Shown here: piece by piece, positions 1 to 10,043 of the stretch | Numbering within the stretch: the stretch's first letter is position 1 | How the letters are laid out: each line of letters begins with the position of its first letter | IMG/VR virus record: IMGVR_UViG_2724679236_000013 | Span: 1 to 22,583 of that record | Origin: a virus | Lineage: Duplodnaviria; Heunggongvirae; Uroviricota; Caudoviricetes | Strand: one strand, 5' to 3' | DNA: 22,583 nt | Position numbers and translations under genes: made by a program | The notes under the pieces: generated by a model | Databases searched by the model: none | What the model saw: only the letters and a program-made list of their open reading frames with translations | What the model was told of the DNA's origin: nothing

Positions 1-2181
1 TTATGCTACAACTCCACCATTAACCAAAAGTCTCTCGGCTCCATTACTGCTTCCTGCCCCACCATTTGAGAACCTGTTTGTTACACCGTAGTAGAAATTG
101 GGATTCACAAAAGCATTGGCAGAACCTGTTGTTCTTGCAAGCCTGAAGGCATTTTTTGTGCCAATAAATGTTATCCCTCCCCATGGCAGTTGAATTGTTG
201 TGTCAACATAAGTCTGACACCACACACCATATGCAAATCCCTTAATTACACCACCAATAATAATTGCATTTGAAGGTTCTCCTGCAACATAAACTGCGGA
301 GTTAGCCGTTGAGTCTGTCAGGGTTCCTTTCGCATTCAGATTATTCAGGGTACTTGTTGCCGCCGCACCTGATGCAAAAACGACACCATATCCATCCGTG
401 GCTCTTTCAACAACAATGTTATTGAGGATGTGATCACCAAAGACTGTCGCTCCAGATACTGGAGAGAGAAATACACTATTACCCGCAGCCCTGACAGTCC
501 TGTGGCCATTAACAACAACACCATTAGCTTCACCAGTAATGTATATTCCTGAACCTTTGCTATCAAAATCTACATTATTAATCATTGTTAACTTTGAATT
601 ACCCACTCTATCCTGAATACGATAAGCCCCTGAACCAGATTGACCAAATCCTGAAACAATATTGTTTGAGATTACATCTCCATCAACAATGTCTCCAATA
701 AGTATACCTCCAGAGATATTTGAAGAATCTGTTTTGATGCCAACATTATAGATAATATTGGCATCAATAATTGATGGTGGATACGAGACAGAGCCGTCTG
801 CCCCGCCTGAACGATAAATGCCAGTCCAGTTAGTATCACGAATGATATTATGTGCAATCAATATTGAACCGCCGTAAGTTTGATGGCTATTATAGCCAAA
901 CTCAATACCGTGCCTTTTATTGATTAGCGATGAATCCTTCGCAGTGAAATCAGAGTTGTAGGTGAGAATTGTGTTATTTGTAATAATAATATCCCTGTCA
1001 GCAGACAAGGCGTTCACATTTATTCCCTGGCTGGCATCTGACAGTAGCAAATTACCTATAATTTTACCTCCCTTTGATGCCCCTGGAGTACCAGTGTAAG
1101 CGACTATATCACCTCCAGTGGCAAATGTACTGGTTAGGTCCCAATCATTAAGCCAGCATAAATTATCAATAGCTTCCCACTGCCTGCAGCTCTGGAAGAA
1201 TATCCCTGCATTTTTCCATCCGATGCTTCTGCAGCGCCTAACAAATGCCTGCTTAAGTCCAACCATTCTAAATCCATTTGCAGTTTCAGCAGCCGTAGAT
1301 GGTGTCGCACTAACGTTTTTAACTTCAAGCCCTTCCAATTGAAAGATTGTTTGGTCATTTTCAGGCGCCATTACACCGTTAATTTCTGGCGCGGTATATT
1401 CAACTATCATACCGTCGGCAGTTACCCATGGATTAACGCCAGTAAACAAAAGGCCGACTGATGACCTGAATACGCCAGGACTACCAATACAACGATTTTG
1501 AGTGGCCCACCTTGAAAGACCAGTTGCACTGTCAAAGGTATCGTCATCAGGTATAGCACCACATTCTGGCGGAGTGAGAGCATCTTTCTTAACGTTAATC
1601 CATCTCCCCTGACCACTAACTGATGATGGCATGATGACTGAGAATCCATCATGGGCCTCTGTGCTAGTTGCATTCCATCTGAAACAACCACCACCAACAC
1701 CTCTTCCAGCATGAAAGCTTTTTACCGACACTCTCTCCCCGTTATCAATCAGGGACAATTGGGAGAAGGATTGCAAGTCCGCTACCGATTCAAACTCCCC
1801 AATCATCGACATGCCATATGGAGCTTCCAAGTCATGTTTTAGCGCGGCAGGATCATACTTCAACACATTAGGAAAATAGAACTGCTGAGCACCATACGCA
1901 TCATAAACAGCCATAGAATGGCCATGTACAGTAACGAATTTGGCAATCTGTCCGTTATATACCGGATATCCAGCAGCGTTAATGATGATTGGTTGCGAAA
2001 CAGGAATGTGAGAGCCGTCTTCGTTCTCCACATAAACCTGAATCTGGTTTTCAGGATTTACCGGGTCTGTGTCAATTTTACCGATATAAATTTTGCCATT
2101 GGCTACGGCTTTAAAAGAACGCGCCATAGTGAAGAGTTGCGAAGGCATCGATACAATCACATTGGCTGTAATGTCTGTCAT
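1..2181 (-). CDS. Tailspike protein (P22 gp9 family), 726 aa: conserved N-terminal head-binding domain, divergent C-terminal receptor-binding domain
   Basis: The first ~110 aa ([13 protein letters not shown]...[23 protein letters not shown]...VLKYDP) closely match the P22 tailspike head-binding domain as I remember it; the remainder is Gly/Asn/Ile-rich as expected for a beta-helix. Stop codon TAA lies at positions 1-3. Last gene of the late block, as in P22. Confidence 0.9.
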
Positions 2182-2239
2182 TTAATTTGCTCCAGATACA
2201 AGGAATCGCCGCAGCATGGCTACGGTGAATTTTGGGCAT

Positions 2240-2263
2240 AAAAAAACCCAGCCGAAGCTGGGT
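2240..2263 (-). terminator. Rho-independent terminator downstream of ant
   Basis: Perfect 7-bp stem ACCCAGC / GCTGGGT with a 4-nt loop; on the minus strand it is followed by a run of seven T. Lies between the ant stop (2304) and the tailspike start (2181). Confidence 0.6.
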
Positions 2264-2303
2264 CGTTGCGTTGGTTATTGACCTACACTTTTCGTGCAGG
2301 TAG

Positions 2304-3206
2304 TTAAAGTTTAATTGAGTGGCACGCTCTATCACGTATCGCTGCGAATGAAGCTATCTCTTTAAGTGCCCAGCTTTGCTCAGCCATTAAATGGCGAAGT
2401 GCTTTTAGCTCGGCTCTTACTGCTGAAACGTCATACCCCGCTTTTGTCAGAATATCGATTAGTTTATACGCCGGACTGCATTCAACGAGTGCGCTGCGGT
2501 CAAGAGCAACAGTATCACCGCATTGCTGCCTGATAATGGCGTAAGGTGCATTTTCAGCAAACCATGAAATCGGGAAGTTAATATCCAGTTTCGGCGCTGG
2601 TAACTCTTCTTGTTTGCCGATGAACTCACCTTCAAGCACTACCCTGTGGATGTACTCTACGGCTTGCGGTATCTGAGATGCATCAAGCTCTTCAATACTT
2701 TCCACATTGAAACGCTGATGAATCATTGCATAAGCTTCTGGGTACATTAGATGCTTTTTGCTGACTAGCATATTTACAGCATCACGAAGCGGAGTCCTGT
2801 CATCAACAGATGTTTTCTTACGTGCATTTTCTGCCTTTCCCTTTGTCCAGTAGTCATGCAGCACAGTAAAGCATTCTTCCTGGTACTGAATCAGTTTATC
2901 GCGGATGTCAGCACGAACTTTCTCAGGGTTGATGCTGAACAGCCATCCATTTAACTTCTTCAAAGGAAGGCAGAGTAACTTACGAAGCTTCCCATCAGCG
3001 GCAACCATGTTCATATGAACACAGTTGAATTTGCTAATCTGCTTCATGAGTTTTGTTTGCTGCGTTGACCAGCTCATTCCAAGGTTTTCAACGATTGGCT
3101 TCATCGCAACATATGCAACTCCGGCAGCCATGGCGGTGATAATTTGCTGACCGTTGAATGGTACGTAAGAGGTGTTCACTGCTTCTAAAATTGCTATACT
3201 ATTCAT
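2304..3206 (-). CDS. ant: Antirepressor Ant (immI region), 300 aa
   Basis: Lies directly downstream of the Arc-like gene and upstream of the tailspike, the P22 immI arrangement. Start chosen at the internal Met ([10 protein letters not shown]...), which is preceded by GGAG; this gives 300 aa, the size I recall for P22 Ant. The 322-aa extension in the ORF track is probably not translated. Confidence 0.75.
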
Positions 3207-3438
3207 GTTGGTTTTTCTCCACGGATTTACTGACAACCGAAGCCCTGACTGTTCCCGCAGTTGGGGCTTCACTGTTTTGATTTCTTTGCCGCATCAAGCA
3301 TCACTTCTGAAAACGTGCGCTTGCCACTGAATACTCTTTCTCTTCTCAATTTTTCGTTCGTGCCAAATGATTCGCCATGAACAAAATTTGGTCTTAAAAT
3401 GGTAATCGCAATCTCTTTGACTACTGCATCCAAGCGAA

Positions 3439-3579
3439 TCACACCGTTATCCCCTCTCTCTTCAGGCTGTCCATCACCCGTTTAATTACTTCTGCGCTAA
3501 ATGAGCGACACTCTTCCTTTGCTTTCTCTTCAAGGATTTTTTCTAACTTCTCTGGCATACGCAGTGTTTTTACCTTCAT
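3439..3579 (-). CDS. arc: Arc-like ribbon-helix-helix repressor, 46 aa (below the ORF-track length cutoff)
   Basis: Hand translation of the minus strand gives MKVKTLRMPEKLEKILEEKAKEECRSFSAEVIKRVMDSLKREGITV, preceded by GGAGG. It resembles P22 Arc (…FNLRWPREVLDLVRKVAEENGRSVNSEIYQRVMESFKKEG…, from memory). Sits immediately upstream of ant. Confidence 0.7.
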   Translation of the reverse strand: MKVKTLRMPEKLEKILEEKAKEECRSFSAEVIKRVMDSLKREGITV

Positions 3580-3683
3580 TGCATCCTCCGTTGTATGTGG
3601 TACGCATACATAGTATTTAGGTACGCATTGATAGTCAATAGATACCTACATATCCTGTGGTAAAAATTATTCAGGATGCGCCG
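3580..3683. promoter_or_regulatory. Divergent promoter/operator region between arc-ant and the Mnt-like genes
   Basis: A 104-bp AT-rich spacer between divergent starts. GGTACGCAT occurs at 3599-3607 and 3620-3628 (21-bp spacing), and an inverted repeat TAGGTA (3618-3623) / TACCTA (3643-3648) is present. Position corresponds to P22 Pant/Pmnt with the Arc and Mnt operators. Confidence 0.45.
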
Positions 3684-3941
3684 ATGTCTGATCGTAAGTA
3701 CAAAAACCCTCAAGTGAATCTGAGGCTTCCTGTAGAGATAAAGGAACGTCTTATTGAACTGGCTGAGGCTAATTCTCGTTCATTAAATGCTGAGATGGTC
3801 GCAGCACTTGAAGCATGGACCGAAAAAAACAAACACATTCAAGCACTAGATCTTGCAACTATAGCATCACGATTGATAGATCTTGAGCATGATGTTGAGA
3901 AGTTGAAATGCATGTATGGCAACGATGAAAACAAAGGTTAG
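3684..3941 (+). CDS. Mnt-like ribbon-helix-helix repressor, 85 aa
   Basis: The N-terminus (NLRLPVEIKERLIELAEANSRSLNAEMVAAL) has the Arc/Mnt RHH signature and resembles P22 Mnt as I remember it. ATG at 3684 is preceded by AGGA; the ORF track's start at 3657 is a GTG without an obvious ribosome-binding site. Divergent from arc-ant, as mnt is in P22. Confidence 0.6.
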   Translation: MSDRKYKNPQVNLRLPVEIKERLIELAEANSRSLNAEMVAALEAWTEKNKHIQALDLATIASRLIDLEHDVEKLKCMYGNDENKG

Positions 3942-4182
3942 AGACATAGCCCCATATAGCGTAAGAATGCCAGATAGCCTCAAGCGCGACCTGACCATAA
4001 GAGCATCGAAAAACGGACGCTCATTAAATTCAGAAATAGTTATGATCTTGCAAGCCGCTATTGATGAAGAAAAATCACCAAGATCGATAGAAGGTTTTGC
4101 TCAACAAGAATCTGAAAAATTTAGGGAGGCTCTTCTTAAGACTCTCAGCAGCATGTACGGAGAAGATAAAAAACCCACCTGA
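3916..4182 (+). CDS. Second Mnt/Arc-like RHH protein (paralog of the upstream gene), 88 aa
   Basis: RHH-like N-terminus (VRMPDSLKRDLTIRASKNGRSLNSEIVMILQAA). Its C-terminus ends ...MYGEDKKPT, against ...MYGNDENKG in the upstream protein. Start is uncertain (ATG at 3916 or 3925, neither with a strong ribosome-binding site); it overlaps the upstream stop, suggesting translational coupling. Confidence 0.5.
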   Translation: MATMKTKVRDIAPYSVRMPDSLKRDLTIRASKNGRSLNSEIVMILQAAIDEEKSPRSIEGFAQQESEKFREALLKTLSSMYGEDKKPT

Positions 4183-4192
4183 CGGTGGGTTT
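4168..4192. terminator. Bidirectional rho-independent terminator between convergent genes
   Basis: AAAAAA-CCCACC-tgac-GGTGGG-TTT: a 6-bp GC-rich stem flanked by an A-run and a T-run. It overlaps the stop of the + strand RHH gene and sits directly beside the stop of the minus-strand toxin-like gene (4191). Confidence 0.55.
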
Positions 4193-4640
4193 AGTCAAAC
4201 ATAGTGTTTCTAAAGTCTCTCGCATACCCTGCTAACACTCTCATTCTATTATGATTGTTAGCAGACATGTGAGCTACAGGATGAAAAAGAGCAATCAATG
4301 AATACCTGTTCTCATCAAAAAGATTTTGTGCATAAACGAGAGCGGTATTGGATGTTTTATGCCACTGCAACTTTTGCGGTGTGCTGATATCTGTGCCATT
4401 TTTTATTGGCTCAAATTTATTTTCACCAATTGCTAAATGAAGGTGCATAAGGCCTGCATCTTCAATATCAGGAGGTCGATGATAAGAGGTGTCTCTGCCA
4501 AAATAGCTGGGCAACGTTCCCGTAGACTTGTAGATGATAAAATCATCTACAAGTGTTTGTTTTAAATCAGGAAACTCAACAAAAACCGGGGAGAAAAAAT
4601 AGTCAAAACTATCCTGATTATATTCCACGGTTACTTGCAT
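4191..4640 (-). CDS. Putative YafO-family toxin-like protein, 149 aa
   Basis: Motifs YFGRD...HLHLA...ALVYAQNLFDE...LIALFHP...NHNRM resemble E. coli YafO (ribosome-dependent mRNA interferase) as I recall it; not verified by search. GAGG ribosome-binding site; start lies 8 nt after the upstream gene's stop. AT-rich cargo DNA. Confidence 0.5.
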   Translation of the reverse strand: MQVTVEYNQDSFDYFFSPVFVEFPDLKQTLVDDFIIYKSTGTLPSYFGRDTSYHRPPDIEDAGLMHLHLAIGENKFEPIKNGTDISTPQKLQWHKTSNTALVYAQNLFDENRYSLIALFHPVAHMSANNHNRMRVLAGYARDFRNTMFD

Positions 4641-4648
4641 GTTTTACC

Positions 4649-5215
4649 TCAGTGGAAGTTACCAGAGTGAAACACACGAGTCCCGTGCTCAGCAAGCGCA
4701 CGCAAACCAGCCATATCTACGGAACTATCAAAAACAACCGGAACACATGAGCGTTGTTTAATAAGACTATTCAGGTTGGTTACGGCAGATCTGGCATCAG
4801 CAACAACGATATAGATATCTCTTGCGATCTCTTTAAAATCAGCAGAAGCTTCTTTGAATACCGATTTCATTGCCCCTTCAAGTCCTCTCAATTGATGCTC
4901 TATCAATCGAGACTTTTCTGGTTCAATGATAGACAACACATTGTCTACATTCTCATCGGTAGCGTTTGCAAGAACACGATAAGCGTATTTCAGCATTCGA
5001 GACAATTCTTTAATCGAAGACACCGCCTCATGAAGCTCATCATTAGCCCGTTCACTGCTGAATGAGGATTGATGGTAAGCGTGCTGAACGTTATCAGTAA
5101 CAACCACCTCACAACTGAACGCAGAAGCTTGCTGTAATAGCAAACCTATTGCGACTCCAGCTTTGGCAGCGTTCAAGCTAAACATTTCATCAATCCTATT
5201 AGTCTCATTGCTCAT
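4649..5215 (-). CDS. Hypothetical protein, 188 aa, translationally coupled upstream partner of the YafO-like ORF (candidate non-canonical antitoxin or regulator)
   Basis: Strong ribosome-binding site AAGGAGG 5 nt upstream of the ATG at 5215 (the ORF track's longer form starts at a TTG). No resemblance to YafN/DinJ/RelB or RHH antitoxins that I can recognise; no transmembrane segment evident. Confidence 0.6.
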   Translation of the reverse strand: MSNETNRIDEMFSLNAAKAGVAIGLLLQQASAFSCEVVVTDNVQHAYHQSSFSSERANDELHEAVSSIKELSRMLKYAYRVLANATDENVDNVLSIIEPEKSRLIEHQLRGLEGAMKSVFKEASADFKEIARDIYIVVADARSAVTNLNSLIKQRSCVPVVFDSSVDMAGLRALAEHGTRVFHSGNFH

Positions 5216-5390
5216 ACAAACCTCCTTCTTATCGGAGATTATCAATAGCTATGCATCCATTGAATACACGCTATGCGCAATAAGTTTACGTCACGTGATA
5301 TCATTATGCAACCACCGTTCTATCACCGACTAACTTTACTCCCACTCCTATACATCATCTGGTATCCTGCGCAAAACTAAGGAGGTTGGT
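5216..5390. promoter_or_regulatory. Divergent intergenic control region of the cargo island
   Basis: A 175-bp AT-rich spacer between divergent starts (5215 minus, 5391 plus). It contains overlapping 8-bp palindromes TCACGTGA (5291-5298) and TGATATCA (5296-5303), candidate operator sites. Confidence 0.4.
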
Positions 5391-5813
5391 GTGTTTGGTA
5401 TATTAAAGAAAAGCAAGATAAAAAAATTAAGGGCAGAACTCGCCGAAACACAAAAACTGGCTTCACATTTTTACAAAATGAAATACGACGCTGAAGAGCG
5501 TGCATTCGTTGAGTTATGCGATTTATCTATTCGTATGGGAGTAGAGCCAGATGTAGCGGCAAAAACTCAACAAGGCATTGATATACTTGCAGATGTTGTT
5601 TTAAACAGGCAATATGCGTTTTATCTAAACGAGAAGGCCATTCAGATTTACTCGCAAATCTTCCTCCTAGAAAAAAGAAGAGGAACTCACGATCGAGAAG
5701 AGTGGTTAAATGAAGTTGTTAAAAAATCTGGCTGGGAAGTTGTTTCATCAGAACTACCTCTTATTTGTGCTGATTTAATCGAAGAGGCAAAAGAGCGCCT
5801 ATCCGATGGCTAG
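5391..5813 (+). CDS. Hypothetical protein, 140 aa (cargo gene of unknown function)
   Basis: GTG start at 5391 preceded by AAGGAGG at 5-nt spacing. Divergent from the toxin-like operon and convergent on gp16; no recognisable domain. Confidence 0.55.
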   Translation: MFGILKKSKIKKLRAELAETQKLASHFYKMKYDAEERAFVELCDLSIRMGVEPDVAAKTQQGIDILADVVLNRQYAFYLNEKAIQIYSQIFLLEKRRGTHDREEWLNEVVKKSGWEVVSSELPLICADLIEEAKERLSDG

Positions 5814-5837
5814 ACGAATCCATCCGTGGATTACTAA

Positions 5838-7994
5838 TTACTCCTGTGCCATTCCGCTTAGCGATGCCACAATTCCAGCTCTTGCTAAACGCTGGAACTC
5901 TTCGTTTCCTAGTGCCTCGCGTATTGCCTTTACGGCGGCCTTATTTGCCATAAATCTGCGTTCCGCCGCCGCTAATGCACCATCACTTGCCCCAACCTTA
6001 ACTGCCTTTGTTGCCTCTTGAACAGCCTTTTCAATAGCGTAACGACCACTGCGGGATGCAGCTAACTTTTCTATCGTCCCTTTAGCTATAGATCCAGAAA
6101 CAGCCCCTACAACACCGCCAACAATCCCTCCACCAGTAGTACCAACAATAGCCCCTGATGTTGAATTGCCTATTGCATTGAGAACTGTCATGACAGCTTT
6201 TGGCAGTCCTTGCTCAAGAGAGTTAATTGCCGGTATAGAGCGCCCCGTATGCTCTACATATCGCAGTGGTCTGGTTGCTGCTCTGGCAAGGTCGCTGTAT
6301 GCCCTAGCAATCTTACCCATTTCTGGCGAGTGCCTACTAATGGCAGTAATGTTCTGCGGCGTAAGGATCGACGCTATATGGAATACGCCAGCAGACTCTG
6401 ATTTACCGCCACGCACCCCTTGCGATACCGCATCTTGTAATATTGATGCAATTGCAGGAGATCGCTCAGACTCTGGCAGCGCGCCAATAATCTGATGAAA
6501 CTTTCCTGTCCCACTTTTTGATGAATTTTGCAAGGCTTTAATACCATCAGTGACTAACTGATCAGTTGCAAGGTTTCTAAACGCTGCTTCAGCCTGTTCT
6601 TGTGCTGTAAATCTTGCTTTTGACAGATCATTAGCTTTTTGCCAGTCATCAAGAAAACCGCCATTTTGAGCCATTATGCGCATATCTTCCGTTGCTGCAT
6701 CACGAAGCTCCGCCATGCGCCTTGCCGTATTTGCCTCACCAGACCTTATATACTTCTGCTCAGCGTCAGCAAGTTTACTTCGCCATGCCTTCATGGCATC
6801 AAACGTGATTCCTTTTTTACCAGTTTTAGCATAAGCAGATGCAAATTGTTTCATCTCAGGAGTTAGCGGCATGCCAGCCAAAATATCACCCTGAATTGTA
6901 GCGTTCAGGTTTGACATTCTGGCCTTTGCGTCAGGCATCGTGGAGCGGACGCTATCCCATGCTGCCTTTTCTGAGTTCTTCATTTTATCAATACTTGCTA
7001 AAACCCTTTGTTTTATGGCTGCACTTTTTTCTGATGCAGATCCAGCCTCAGCACCAAGTTCATCAAGTGCTGAGTGGAATTTCGACTGTATTTCACTAAA
7101 AGCCCTAGTATGTGCATCCTGAACAATTCCTGGTTCGGATGCCAATATCCCTTCGGCTTGTGCAATTCCACGACTTCCAGATCGCATTCCTGGTGTTAAT
7201 GCGTTTATATCAATTCCAGCAGACTCAGCCGCTTTTGCTACATCTTCGGACACATTAGCGGCCTGACTGGCAATTGACTGACGCCCAGCACCTGACTTTG
7301 CCATCCTGGAAACATCATTAGCAGAATTCAGTGCTGCACCACCAAGAGCCTGTGAAACCCTTGGCGCAATAACGCGCCCGACACCTGAAAGAACGCCTTG
7401 AGCACCAATATTGATACCACCGTTAACGGCAGCATTTTGTGCAAAATCACCCTCCTGATTTGCAGCATCAGCAAGAGAACCGGCAATCATGTTTCCTGCG
7501 GAACCGATGTCTCCTGCGAGCTTTGCTGGCGCTCCAGCAGCTTTTGCTGCTGTGCCAATTGGCAGGAGATACCCACCAATTGTTTCACCGGCTTGCGCGT
7601 AAGGGTCTGTCGGTCGATCGACTGGACGATAGACATCATCCAAAACCTTGGGGCCACCAAGCCCCTGGCTGATTGCATTAATCAGACTTGCGCCACCCTG
7701 CAATACGTCAAATGGTATGTTTACCAGACCACGACCAGCCTGTTCTGCAATTTGCCCTGCACTTTGACCACCTGTGAGCCAATCACCAGCTTGTTGCATC
7801 AATGATGGTTCTTCTTTCTGCTGCTGAGGTGGAGGGTATGCTGCATAAAACTGATCTCTTGCTTCAGCCCATTTGTCACCAGCCTTAGGGGCAACAACCT
7901 CATCAAAATATTGCGCTTGAGCCTGTGCTTTCTGTTCTTCAGTTAACGCCTGATACTGTGGAGAAGCGATAACATCTTTCCATGCTTTAGCCAT
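5838..7994 (-). CDS. Ejection (injection) protein, P22 gp16 family, 718 aa
   Basis: Synteny: last of the gp7/gp20/gp16 trio before the immunity/cargo region. Ala/Gly/Gln-rich composition typical of ejection proteins. Its start overlaps the gp20 stop (TAATG). Confidence 0.7.
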
Positions 7995-9343
7995 TAATCA
8001 CCCCATAAAGACGAGAAACCGGACTTATTGCTGTCGCTTCCTGATTTTCGCTCACTAACATATGTGTCATAACCTGATGAACTATATCCCATTGATTCAG
8101 CCTCCCTTGCTGCAACCTTTTGAAATACAGAATATTGCGATCGGATTTCAGATAACTGTTTTCTGACGACCTCTTCAGGCTGTGTTATATCGAGTTTCGC
8201 GATAAGGTTTTCCAGTTTTTGTCCTTCAGCATTGGAGAGGCTACCCATACCTCGCATAGTCTGCACGTTCTGGACAAACGCACCCGACTTTAATTCTTCT
8301 ATCGCATTACGGTTTGCAAGCCCTTCAGCACTTGTGAAGCCATCTATATTTCTTCCTTCGAAGCGACCGATACCTTCAAGCTCCTTCTTACCAAGCAAAG
8401 AATCTATTTTCTCTATCCCTCGCTCACCAGTAATCAACGCATTGTTGTAATTATTGTTGCCATCAAGCCATCTCTTAGCCTGAGACATTCTGGCTGACGT
8501 TGCAGCTTTACCGGTTAGCGGATCAATTCCCGTCGCTGCTATCTGTGAGTTAAGAGACAAAACATCCATATCCTGAAGTTGTCCTGCTCTTTCAAGGGCC
8601 GCCTGTGACTGCTTAAACACATACTTGTCGTGATTCAGTCTTGCCATTTGAGCCTTATAGGAAAGATCCTGCCCCCTAATAGCCCTCGCATTCGTCATGT
8701 CATTATTGCGAATGGTTTCGTTAATTCTTTGCTGCTCCTGCTGGCGACCAACCATCTTATCCTGAACAGCAAAAGCCTTTTCTGGCCCAAGTGCACCGAG
8801 AGACATAGTAGTCAGCATGTGTGATAGCTGCTCTGGATTCTGGATACCTGTCTGAATCATCCAGTCAGCATTAGCACCAACGCGATTTAACCTGTCCTTG
8901 TTGTCAGTAATGAATTTACTGTAGGCTTCCGGTCCCTGAGAAAGAGCGACGTTAGCCCTCATGGCTAAATCGCCCATATCGTTGCGTTGCTGCTCATTAA
9001 GACCGGAAAACGCCTGTTGTGCCTGCGCAACAAATGCTGGATTTTCCTTGGCAAACTTAAATAGTCCCGATGGATCACCAGAAGCCCATGCATCAGCATG
9101 AACCTTATTGAACGCATTAATCGCTTTCTGTTGCTGTTCCTGCTTATAAATATCAGCAGCCCCAGCCAGACCACGTAACGCGGTCAGACCAACGTTATTT
9201 GCACCTGATCGAGCCAGTTCATTGTTTTCGCGGATCAGACCAAGCGTTGCGTTAATGTCGCTTGCCTTTGGCGCATTCTCATTTTGCGCACCAATTCCAG
9301 CCAGAAAACCACCAGAATTAATACCCTGTTGCCAAGTAGCCAT
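7994..9343 (-). CDS. Ejection protein, P22 gp20 family, 449 aa
   Basis: Synteny between the gp7 and gp16 homologs; size close to P22 gp20; tight operon packing. Confidence 0.7.
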
Positions 9344-9353
9344 TGATTAACCC

Positions 9354-10043
9354 TTAAAACAGTGAACCAAGCAGACCAAGACCAGCACCGATACCAGCAC
9401 CCCACGGAGTTGATAGCTCGAGAGCACTGGCTATGCCACCACCCAAAAGTGCACCGGATGCAGCACCACTAACCCCCTGCTGCAATGCTGACGGTCGGTT
9501 GGCGTTTGCCGCAGCCAGCGCCGCGCTTTGCTGTGAAATCTGACTCATGTTGTTGGCGTATGTCTGCCCAGCGTTTGCCTGACCTTGCAACGCACCAAGG
9601 CCAATGTTTGCCAGATTCTGGTAGTTGTTCATTTGTCCAGATAGCCATTGCTGGCCAAGAGTTGGTGCGATTGTTGCTAACTGATTACTGGTTGCGGTGG
9701 AACCTAATCCACCTGTTGCTTCCGCTGCCGCCAGACTCTGATAGCGCGCCTGACCAGCAAGGTCTTTGTACTGCTGAGAGTTGTAATACTGGTTAAGCGC
9801 CTGACCTTGCCCCTCCAGAGACGATAAGTTCTCGAGGCTGCCGACATACTTCCCAGCCAGAGGAGTAAACGGCTTCAGGTTGTTCATGATGGTGTTGAAC
9901 TGCTGATTTTGCAGGTCTGCGGCATACTTCTGGGCTTCTGCTGCATACTTTGCGCTTTTATCGGAGCCACCTTTTCCGCCTTTTTCAGGGCAATAAGGTT
10001 CCTCGCCACGCAGTTTTCTGCCCAGCTTAAATGCATATAACAT
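9354..10043 (-). CDS. Ejection protein, P22 gp7 family, 229 aa
   Basis: N-terminus MLYAFKLGRKLRGEEPYCPEKGGKGG matches my recollection of P22 gp7; Gly/Ala/Gln-rich C-terminus; same length as I recall for P22 gp7. Confidence 0.75.
   Translation of the reverse strand: MLYAFKLGRKLRGEEPYCPEKGGKGGSDKSAKYAAEAQKYAADLQNQQFNTIMNNLKPFTPLAGKYVGSLENLSSLEGQGQALNQYYNSQQYKDLAGQARYQSLAAAEATGGLGSTATSNQLATIAPTLGQQWLSGQMNNYQNLANIGLGALQGQANAGQTYANNMSQISQQSAALAAANANRPSALQQGVSGAASGALLGGGIASALELSTPWGAGIGAGLGLLGSLF

What the first reader, a model, noticed from the sequence alone, without database searches (positions are those of the whole stretch)
4191..5215. YafO-like toxin coupled to an unrecognised 188-aa partner in the phage cargo slot
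A two-gene minus-strand operon sits where P22 carries sieA, between the ejection genes and immI. The downstream ORF has YafO-like motifs (YFGRD, HLHLA, LVYAQ..FDE, LIALFHP). The upstream ORF is 188 aa, has a strong AAGGAGG site, ends 8 nt before the toxin start, and resembles no canonical YafN/DinJ/RelB antitoxin. This is the right architecture and location for an undescribed toxin-antitoxin, abortive-infection or superinfection-exclusion module. The region is conspicuously AT-rich relative to the structural genes, consistent with horizontally acquired cargo.
Basis: partly seen in the sequence, partly recalled or inferred. Interest (0 to 1): 0.85.

Follow-up and report, generated by a model that had tools for sequence, protein, structure and literature searches.

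The report
Prophage YafO toxin with uncharacterised partner
A self-contained two-gene cassette in a P22-like prophage encodes a YafO-family RNA-cutting toxin that is always paired with an uncharacterised helical protein, most likely its antidote: a new partner for a known toxin, not a new kind of system.

Summary
On the minus strand, a 188-aa ORF (5215..4649, AAGGAGG ribosome site) ends 8 nt before a 149-aa ORF (4640..4191), which is followed by a strong terminator. The 149-aa protein is a real YafO-family member: Pfam PF13957 at 78.9 bits (cutoff 25), and 38% identity to E. coli K-12 YafO. The 188-aa protein matches no Pfam, NCBIfam, PADLOC or PDB entry and is unrelated to YafN or SieA. It is all-helical and belongs to a small family (23 representatives among 1.84 billion proteins). 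Every family member examined sits immediately upstream of a YafO-family gene: 26 of 26 loci found from the toxin side, 27 of 27 from the partner side, and 5 of 5 remote members. The spacing is usually exactly 8 nt, and the toxin's ribosome site overlaps the partner's stop codon. The cassette (window 4166-5393) is a sharply bounded mosaic module that occupies different cargo slots in different phages. The best reading is a type II-like toxin-antitoxin cassette with a new antitoxin family. Neutralisation, RNase activity and any anti-phage role are inferred, not shown. One feature remains unexplained: the partner's conserved N-terminal hydrophobic segment looks like a signal peptide in distant members. 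Novelty: new variant of a known kind. Interest is moderate.

The parts
4166..5393 (-). The whole mobile cassette: upstream non-coding region, partner gene, toxin gene and terminator.
   Evidence: blastn of window 2000-9000 against 12 related prophage loci. Identity is 99.9% with breakpoints at exactly 4166 and 5393, while the flanks are absent or only 73-97% identical. The same boundaries hold in L037, where the cassette is only 74% identical.
5216..5393 (-). Upstream non-coding leader of the cassette, with the Shine-Dalgarno site AAGGAGG at 5227-5221. The promoter is presumed but not identified.
   Evidence: Sequence read directly. The consensus scan found no sigma-70 site of at least 9/12 on the minus strand here. 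By eye there is a GATAAT at 5243-5238 with a poor -35 (inference). No inverted repeat or operator was found.
4649..5215 (-). Partner gene: 188 aa, all-helical, with no known family. Putative antitoxin.
   Evidence: phrog_8416, function unknown, E 6e-96. No Pfam, NCBIfam or PADLOC hit. AF2 model pLDDT 70.8 with helices 16-37, 54-83, 90-122, 125-156 and 167-183. No fold match. The family has 23 representatives. It is always upstream of a YafO gene.
4641..4651 (-). Translational-coupling junction: partner stop TGA (4651-4649), GAGG (4650-4647) acting as the toxin's ribosome site, and an 8-nt spacer before the toxin ATG at 4640.
   Evidence: The pattern CAY-TGA-GGTRnnnn-(A/T)TG is conserved across loci whose partners are only about 35-40% identical. 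More than half of the junctions use a weak TTG start for the toxin. The gap is exactly 8 nt in 25 of 27 IMG/VR loci.
4191..4640 (-). Toxin gene: 149 aa, YafO family (putative endoribonuclease).
   Evidence: Pfam PF13957 E 3.4e-22, 78.9 bits against a cutoff of 25. 38% identity to K-12 YafO, E 7e-20. Columns invariant with K-12 YafO include D33, F34, G48, Y53, H66, H68, Y103 and H124. PGAP names it 'type II toxin-antitoxin system YafO family toxin'.
4161..4192 (-). Intrinsic terminator closing the cassette (AAACCCACC-GTCA-GGTGGGTTT followed by a T-run). It overlaps the toxin stop codon and faces the end of the convergent Arc-like gene.
   Evidence: 9 pairs, 5 G-C, loop of 4. Sequence.

Best explanation
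This is a prophage-borne, self-contained bicistronic toxin-antitoxin-like cassette (a 'moron') whose toxin is a YafO-family endoribonuclease and whose antidote belongs to a previously uncharacterised helical protein family.

Proposed mechanism:
1. The 188-aa partner is translated efficiently from a strong ribosome site.
2. Ribosomes terminating at its TGA re-initiate 8 nt downstream, on a ribosome site that overlaps the stop codon. The toxin is therefore made only together with the partner, and probably in smaller amounts.
3. The partner binds and neutralises the toxin. The binding region is most likely the family-wide conserved C-terminal third (residues about 139-188), which the monomer model predicts poorly.
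4. When partner supply stops or the partner is degraded, the freed toxin cleaves mRNA and arrests translation. Triggers could be host shut-off by an infecting phage or loss of the prophage.
5. The outcome would be abortive infection or stabilisation of the element.

Shown here: gene anatomy, toxin family membership, strict and ancient pairing, the conserved coupling junction, and the discrete mobile module found in many phage cargo slots.

Inferred, not shown: physical binding, neutralisation, RNase activity of this homolog, the trigger, and any defence phenotype.
For: Toxin identity.

Partner-toxin pairing:
- From the toxin side, the upstream ORF matches the partner HMM in all 26 loci, spanning E. 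coli, Salmonella, Serratia, Buttiauxella, Enterobacter, Pluralibacter, Pseudomonas putida, Orbaceae, Klebsiella phage-plasmids and Pseudomonas phages.
- From the partner side, all 27 IMG/VR loci have a YafO-family gene directly downstream.
- The five most remote partner representatives are all next to PF13957 genes.

Coupling: the antitoxin-then-toxin gene order matches YafN-YafO (PMC11980606 Table 1). The stop/ribosome-site overlap is conserved and TTG toxin starts are frequent.

Co-evolution: partner and toxin pairwise identities correlate (r = 0.85 over 190 pairs). The partner evolves faster (mean identity 28% against 46%), as antitoxins usually do.

Conserved but poorly modelled C-terminal region.

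Autonomous module: it has sharp boundaries and its own terminator. It sits in different slots: P22-like gene 16/immI, the tail gene cluster of HK639 and siphoviruses, between Q and holin, beside integrase or repressor, and in phage-plasmids.
Against: - The partner is atypical for a type II antitoxin. It is larger than the toxin and has no recognisable DNA-binding domain. No operator-like inverted repeat lies upstream.
- The partner has a conserved N-terminal hydrophobic segment. In distant family members this looks like a Sec signal peptide or lipobox, and UniProt labels one member 'Lipoprotein'. An exported protein could not neutralise a cytoplasmic RNase.
- The toxin model was too poor (pLDDT 53.6) to confirm a RelE-like fold.
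- No model of the complex could be made.
- No experimental data on this pair were found in the literature library.
Confidence: 0.6

Rival explanations
1. The partner is targeted to the membrane or exported through its N-terminal signal-like segment. It would then act at the envelope, as a superinfection-exclusion factor or injection sensor (fitting the sieA and HK97-gp15-type slots), rather than as a simple cytoplasmic antitoxin. The YafO-like protein would be controlled in some other way.
For: - Distant YafO-coupled members have textbook n-h-c/AXA or lipobox N-termini.
- About a quarter of members score within the range of real signal peptides on a crude hydrophobic-segment score.
- UniProt gives the YMC11/02/R656 protein the automatic name 'Lipoprotein'.
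- The n-region of the HK639 clade is net positive.
- The cassette sits in slots that hold membrane-acting exclusion genes in P22 (PMC10883804).
Against: - The window protein (score 18.4) and the HK639 clade (13.7-16) fall below all positive controls (at least 21.2).
- The n-region in the window clade is acidic.
- The segment, with its GLL(M/L)QQ motif, is among the most conserved parts of the protein, unlike ordinary signal peptides.
- The Klebsiella and P. putida members lack a convincing hydrophobic core.
- No other candidate antidote is shared by the loci.
Confidence: 0.15
2. The two proteins work together, but the partner is not an antidote. It would be a sensor, adaptor or activator that directs or switches on the RNase, making this a two-component effector rather than a toxin-antitoxin pair.
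For: - The partner is larger than the toxin and helical-bundle-like.
- It lacks an antitoxin-type DNA-binding domain.
- The pairing is strict.
Against: - The toxin keeps the residues conserved with K-12 YafO, a validated toxin that needs YafN (PMC2814082; PMC11980606), so an antidote is expected.
- The upstream position, coupled translation and weak toxin start codons fit excess-antidote logic.
- One locus carries a frameshifted toxin next to an intact partner, the usual decay order for toxin-antitoxin pairs.
Confidence: 0.1
3. It is a toxin-antitoxin pair, but its biological role is selfish stabilisation (addiction) of the cassette or prophage, not defence against other phages.
For: - It is a discrete mobile module with sharp boundaries that spreads among unrelated phages and phage-plasmids.
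- No PADLOC model matches it.
- The literature library reports no defence phenotype for any YafO system.
Against: Its location in prophage cargo slots that often hold exclusion or defence genes is suggestive, but that is all. The two roles are not mutually exclusive, and nothing here separates them.
Confidence: 0.3

Closest known systems
YafN-YafO type II toxin-antitoxin system of the E. coli K-12 dinB operon
   Same: - The toxin family is the same (PF13957; 38% identity over 120 aa, E 7e-20).
- The gene order is antidote first, toxin second, with a gap of a few nucleotides.
- The expected activity is mRNA cleavage (PMC2814082, PMC11980606).
   Different: - The upstream protein is unrelated to YafN: BLASTP E 36, hhalign probability 0.3%. 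It is 188 aa and all-helical, against 97 aa for YafN.
- Leplae et al. record Phd as the named antitoxin super-family associated with YafO (PMC3141249); this partner has no recognised family.
- The toxin scores below the NCBIfam equivalog cutoff (79 against 153). It also carries about 12 extra N-terminal residues.
- The system is carried as mobile phage cargo, not in the dinB operon.
P22 SieA superinfection-exclusion gene
   Same: It occupies the same genomic slot, between ejection gene 16 and the immI genes (mnt/arc/ant). Like a prophage cargo gene, it has its own transcription signals.
   Different: - There is no sequence similarity.
- SieA is a single 164-aa inner-membrane protein encoded on the strand opposite to gene 16 (PMC10883804).
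- Here there are two co-directional genes, one of them an RNase-family toxin.
Phage 'moron' cassettes (for example HK97 gp15, between the tape measure and tail genes)
   Same: It is an autonomous promoter-gene-terminator insert with low GC and sharp mosaic boundaries. In HK639 the pair lies between the tape measure/lipoprotein genes and the minor tail genes. HK97 gp15 is cited in PMC10883804, reference 8.
   Different: The content is a toxin/partner pair rather than a single membrane exclusion protein. Expression from the prophage state has not been shown.
RelE/ParE-superfamily (BECR-fold) toxin-antitoxin modules used in phage defence (for example the HigB TAC module)
   Same: YafO is listed among the 13 Pfam BECR-fold toxin families. 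Some of these families act in abortive infection (PMC11980606).
   Different: No defence role has been reported for any YafO system. The fold could not be confirmed here. The partner is not one of the antitoxin or chaperone families described there.

Membership tests
YafO toxin family (Pfam PF13957) | Scores above the Pfam gathering threshold over the full domain | tested here: met
   78.9 bits against a cutoff of 25. E 3.4e-22. Profile positions 3-101 of 101 are covered.
YafO toxin family (Pfam PF13957) | Conserved motif residues shared with the experimentally studied K-12 YafO | tested here: met
   Alignment A3: D33, F34, P44, F47, G48, Y53, H66, H68, L101, Y103, A117, H124, A127 and M133 are invariant, including in K-12 YafO. 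BLASTP gives 38% identity, E 7e-20.
YafO toxin family (Pfam PF13957) | Orthology (equivalog) with K-12 YafO by NCBIfam NF007377 | tested here: not met
   79 bits against a cutoff of 153. It is a family member, not an equivalog.
YafO toxin family (Pfam PF13957) | RelE-like (BECR) fold | tested here: inconclusive
   The AF2 model has pLDDT 53.6. Foldseek against the PDB gave no hit at E<=0.001. No PDB sequence relative was found.
YafO toxin family (Pfam PF13957) | Growth inhibition and mRNA cleavage | not testable with these tools
   Needs expression and RNA-cleavage assays.
Type II toxin-antitoxin system | Two adjacent co-directional genes with a short gap or overlap, conserved as a pair | tested here: met
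   8-nt gap. The pair is conserved in 26/26, 27/27 and 5/5 loci.
Type II toxin-antitoxin system | Antitoxin with a DNA-binding domain (RHH, HTH, AbrB or Phd) that autoregulates through an operator | tested here: not met
   None of 25 partner-family members has any Pfam hit. No NCBIfam hit. No inverted repeat upstream.
Type II toxin-antitoxin system | Direct protein-protein neutralisation of the toxin by a labile antitoxin | not testable with these tools
   No complex prediction was available. The only indirect support is the conserved but low-confidence C-terminal region.
YafN / Phd-YefM antitoxin family | Sequence or profile similarity to YafN | tested here: not met
   BLASTP E 36. hhalign probability 0.3%. 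No Pfam PhdYeFM hit.
SieA superinfection exclusion (P22) | Sequence similarity to P22 SieA | tested here: not met
   No local alignment at E<=100 for the partner. The neighbouring 140-aa ORF also shows no real similarity (E 14).
Known anti-phage defence systems (PADLOC-DB v2.0.0) | A match to any defence-system protein model | tested here: not met
   The toxin has no hit. The partner has only a 14-bit ZorA hit at E 0.0035, read here as a coiled-coil artefact.
Sec-exported protein / lipoprotein (partner) | N-terminal n-h-c signal peptide with an AXA site or lipobox | tested here: inconclusive
   On a crude score the window protein gets 18.4. Distant members look like real signal peptides. No dedicated predictor was available.

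The most novel reading that the evidence does not exclude
The partner may be a membrane-targeted or exported antidote. Its conserved signal-like N-terminus would tie the cytoplasmic level of antidote to Sec export or to events at the inner membrane, such as DNA injection by a superinfecting phage. The YafO RNase would then fire on envelope or injection signals rather than on proteolysis of the antitoxin. That would be a new activation logic for a toxin-antitoxin pair, and it would explain why the cassette sits in exclusion-gene slots.
Probability: 0.1. Interest if true: 0.8.

Novelty: new variant of a known kind. Interest (0 to 1): 0.45.

Why it matters
YafO-family toxins in prophages are currently reported as orphan toxins, for example in the P. 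aeruginosa prophage survey PMC10449497. In an E. coli survey only 8% of YafO partner clusters matched known antitoxins (PMC10790755).

This work shows that a single unnamed helical protein family is the dedicated upstream partner of the phage-type YafO clade across Enterobacterales, Pseudomonas and Orbaceae. Related sub-families are seen on hundreds to more than a thousand contigs. Every source calls them 'hypothetical protein', apart from one UniProt 'Lipoprotein' label.

This gives a testable function to a protein family that has no Pfam entry. It adds a likely new antitoxin fold. It also flags a compact 1.2-kb cassette, present in ExPEC and APEC strains (S88, APEC O1, ATCC 11775), as a candidate prophage-encoded defence or addiction module.

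It does not reveal a new kind of system.

Tried and rejected
**Unavailable or failed tools**
- Foldseek of the partner model against the PDB and BFVD gave only generic helical-bundle matches, none at E<=0.001.
- The toxin model was too poor to use (pLDDT 53.6). Its Foldseek search, as expected, gave nothing usable.
- The diverse toxin alignment A3 was too divergent for a genome scan. The closer alignment A2 was used instead.

**Sequence and profile searches that found nothing for the partner**
- PDB sequence and profile searches.
- Pfam on all 25 family members.
- NCBIfam.
- PADLOC gave only a 14-bit ZorA hit.
- Weak Pfam hits (DUF745, Vps53_N and others, E>0.04) were dismissed as coiled-coil noise.

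**Specific relationships rejected**
- YafN homology.
- SieA homology.

**Regulatory signals**
- No operator-like inverted repeat was found upstream.
- No consensus promoter was found on the minus strand.

**Lipoprotein reading**
- This is considered unlikely for the close clades. The residue before the Cys is H in L003, L010 and HK639 and P in L005, neither usual for a lipobox. The window's AFSC is at best marginal.

**Literature**
- Searches for YafO with NetFlax, P22-like, phage defence, or YafM found no experimental work on this pair.
- The 'YafM antitoxin' label in PV340560.1 is a depositor annotation with no supporting paper found.
Full report
**1. The observation**

The minus strand of the window carries two tightly packed ORFs.
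- The upstream ORF starts at the ATG at 5215, which is preceded by AAGGAGG (5227-5221) with a 5-nt spacer. It ends with TGA at 4651-4649 and encodes 188 aa. A longer reading from a TTG at 5245 (198 aa) is possible, and one older annotation uses it. RefSeq uses 188 aa.
- The downstream ORF starts 8 nt later at 4640 and ends at 4191, encoding 149 aa.
- A strong hairpin plus T-run (4192-4161) overlaps its stop codon.
- GC is 39-41% here against 47-54% in the virion genes.

The surroundings are P22-like. Pfam identifies gp7 at 9354-10043 and gp20 at 7994-9343. A 718-aa ORF sits at the gene-16 position. Three Arc-like genes and an Ant antirepressor lie at 2304-4182, and a tailspike with the P22 head-binding domain lies at 1-2181. 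The one difference is that sieA is on the opposite strand to gene 16, while this pair is co-directional with it.

**2. The toxin**

The 149-aa protein matches Pfam YafO_toxin (PF13957) end to end at 78.9 bits, against a gathering score of 25. It is 38% identical to E. coli K-12 YafO over 120 residues, E 7e-20.

An alignment of 13 diverse homologs including K-12 YafO has invariant D33, F34, P44, F47, G48, Y53, H66, H68, L101, Y103, A117, H124, A127 and M133.

It falls short of the NCBIfam equivalog cutoff (79 against 153) and has about 12 extra N-terminal residues. It is therefore a family member, not an ortholog of K-12 YafO. PGAP already names it 'type II toxin-antitoxin system YafO family toxin' in E. 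coli genomes.

YafO is listed among the Pfam BECR/RelE-fold mRNA-cleaving toxins with antitoxin-toxin gene order (PMC11980606). I could not confirm the fold. No solved structure is related by sequence, the AlphaFold model reached only pLDDT 53.6, and its fold search was empty.

**3. The partner**

The 188-aa protein matches only phrog_8416, whose function is unknown. It matches nothing in Pfam, NCBIfam, PADLOC or the PDB. It is unrelated to YafN (BLASTP E 36, hhalign probability 0.3%) and to P22 SieA.

Its AlphaFold model (pLDDT 70.8) is all-helical.
- A confident bundle spans residues 54-156.
- An N-terminal helix (16-37) is modelled less confidently.
- The C-terminal region is poorly modelled.
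- Fold searches gave only generic helical-bundle noise.

The family is small. It has six 90% clusters by the word-indexed search. A full HMMER scan found 23 representatives at 50% identity among 1.84 billion proteins. None of 25 members has a Pfam hit. Apart from one UniProt label ('Lipoprotein'), every source name read is 'hypothetical protein' or equivalent.

Across the family the best-conserved blocks are:
- an N-terminal GLL(M/L)QQ segment;
- a central QLRGLE motif;
- the last third, roughly ARSA..LN.LI.Q....F.S.ID..GL..LA.H.T.

**4. The pairing**

This is the strongest result.
- Starting from toxin homologs (33-85% identity), an HMM built from close partner sequences hit the ORF immediately upstream in all 26 loci, at E values from 7e-85 to 2e-5. 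The sources were metagenomic phage contigs, sequenced phages and species-representative genomes.
- The hosts include Serratia, Buttiauxella, Enterobacter, Pluralibacter, Pseudomonas putida, an Orbaceae bacterium, Pseudomonas phages YMC11/02/R656 and D14L, coliphages HK639 and PhiR40_1, and a Klebsiella phage-plasmid.
- Starting instead from the partner, all 27 IMG/VR loci have a YafO-family gene directly downstream, 25 of them exactly 8 nt away.
- The five most remote partner representatives I looked up (E 5e-9 to 2e-4) are each followed by a PF13957 gene.
- The junction reads CAY-TGA-GGTRnnnn-(A/T)TG, so the toxin's ribosome site overlaps the partner's stop codon. More than half of the junctions use a weak TTG start.
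- Pairwise identities of partners and toxins correlate (r = 0.85). Partners diverge faster, with mean identity 28% against 46%.

**5. The cassette as a mobile unit**

blastn against related prophages gives 99.9% identity over window 4166-5393, with breakpoints at exactly those positions. The flanks are missing or much more diverged, and the same boundaries hold for a cassette that is only 74% identical.

The pair turns up in several different phage slots:
- the gene-16/immI slot of P22-like prophages;
- inside the tail gene cluster of HK639 and other siphoviruses;
- between the Q antiterminator and holin;
- next to Arc/Ant modules;
- next to repressor or integrase genes;
- in phage-plasmids.

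Fifty-five of 5,426 complete E. coli genomes carry at least 80% of the cassette query (window 4100-5400). They include S88, APEC O1 and ATCC 11775.

**6. Mechanism**

The most economical reading is a type II-like toxin-antitoxin cassette in which the helical partner is the antidote of a YafO-type RNase. Supporting points:
- the same gene order as YafN-YafO;
- coupled translation with weak toxin start codons;
- exclusive co-inheritance of the two genes;
- faster evolution of the partner;
- a conserved C-terminal region that is poorly modelled in the monomer, as expected for a segment that folds on its partner;
- one natural variant with a frameshifted toxin and an intact partner.

Binding, neutralisation, RNase activity, the trigger and any anti-phage effect are all inferred. 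The partner departs from textbook antitoxins in three ways. It is larger than the toxin. It has no DNA-binding domain. No operator-like repeat lies upstream.

**7. The unexplained feature**

All clades carry a moderately hydrophobic N-terminal segment. In distant members that are still YafO-coupled it looks like a classical signal peptide or lipobox, for example MKMNPLLKHCFAAILSGGILSVPSYSLA|D in L012 and ...LALSVSTSC in YMC11/02/R656. UniProt's automatic name for the YMC11/02/R656 protein is 'Lipoprotein'.

I scored this segment with a crude hydrophobic-segment measure.

| Set | Score |
|---|---|
| Partner family, full range | 10-25 |
| Window protein | 18.4 |
| HK639 clade | 13.7-16 |
| Cytoplasmic controls | 5-15 |

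In the window's clade the n-region is acidic. The segment there is also more conserved than the rest of the protein, which argues against an ordinary signal peptide. I cannot decide this point with the tools available. It is the main threat to the simple antitoxin model and the basis of the more novel reading.

**8. Prior knowledge**

- Leplae et al. 2011 found YafO toxins associated either with Phd-type antitoxins or with unclassified 'guilt-by-association' partners. At that time they found no YafO on phages (PMC3141249).
- An E. coli survey lists 13 partner clusters for YafO toxins, of which 8% are known (PMC10790755).
- A P. aeruginosa prophage survey lists YafO alone, with no antitoxin named (PMC10449497).
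- One GenBank phage record labels a distant partner homolog (24% identity to the window's partner) 'YafM antitoxin', with no supporting paper found.
- I found no experimental study of this partner family or of any phage-borne YafO module.

**9. Verdict**

It is a known toxin family with a new, dedicated and still uncharacterised partner family, packaged as a mobile phage cargo cassette. That makes it a new variant of a known kind, of moderate interest. It carries a modest chance of something more unusual if the partner proves to be targeted to the envelope.

Noticed in passing
window 5391-5813 (+): A 140-aa ORF (GTG start) lies 24 nt from the end of the gene-16-position ORF and converges on it. 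This is the place and orientation of sieA in P22. It looks soluble, has no Pfam, PHROG or NCBIfam hit, and has no tblastn match in 50,697 phage records. Window 5394-5816 has no blastn match in the 12 related prophage loci compared.
   Followed up: partly
window 3439-3579 (-), 3657-3941 (+), 3916-4182 (+): The immI region has three Arc-like ribbon-helix-helix ORFs, against two (mnt and arc) in P22. The two plus-strand ORFs overlap by 26 nt. Their best PHROG families (phrog_795 and phrog_2685) are labelled 'partition protein ATPase', which looks like a mislabel for such small RHH proteins.
   Followed up: no
L028 (IMGVR_UViG_2537562173_000011), locus 2823-4051: This copy of the cassette is 99.5% identical but differs in length by 1 nt. 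The change truncates the toxin ORF at its 5' end while the partner stays intact, making it a possible natural toxin-inactivated variant.
   Followed up: partly
L001 (E. coli ATCC 11775, NZ_CP033092.2), locus 3166-7977: In this prophage the cassette is flanked by a ClpP-like protease gene instead of the window's 88-aa Arc-like gene. An IS21-family element sits between ant and the tailspike gene.
   Followed up: no
L014 (phage HK639) 2420-3438, and L016 (phage PhiR40_1) 222-1212: The pair is present in two isolated coliphages. In HK639 (genes 17/18) it sits between the tape measure/lipoprotein genes and the minor tail genes. In PhiR40_1 it sits near the left genome end, where the depositor named the genes 'YafM antitoxin' and 'YafO toxin'. 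These phages would make convenient experimental systems.
   Followed up: partly
window 4649-5215, partner residues 11-36: Met11 is invariant in the close family, and some homologs start at the equivalent Met. Translation from Met11 would give MFSLNAAKAGVAIGLLLQQASA|FS, which has a more signal-peptide-like layout than the full-length N-terminus. A second start site is conceivable but untested.
   Followed up: no
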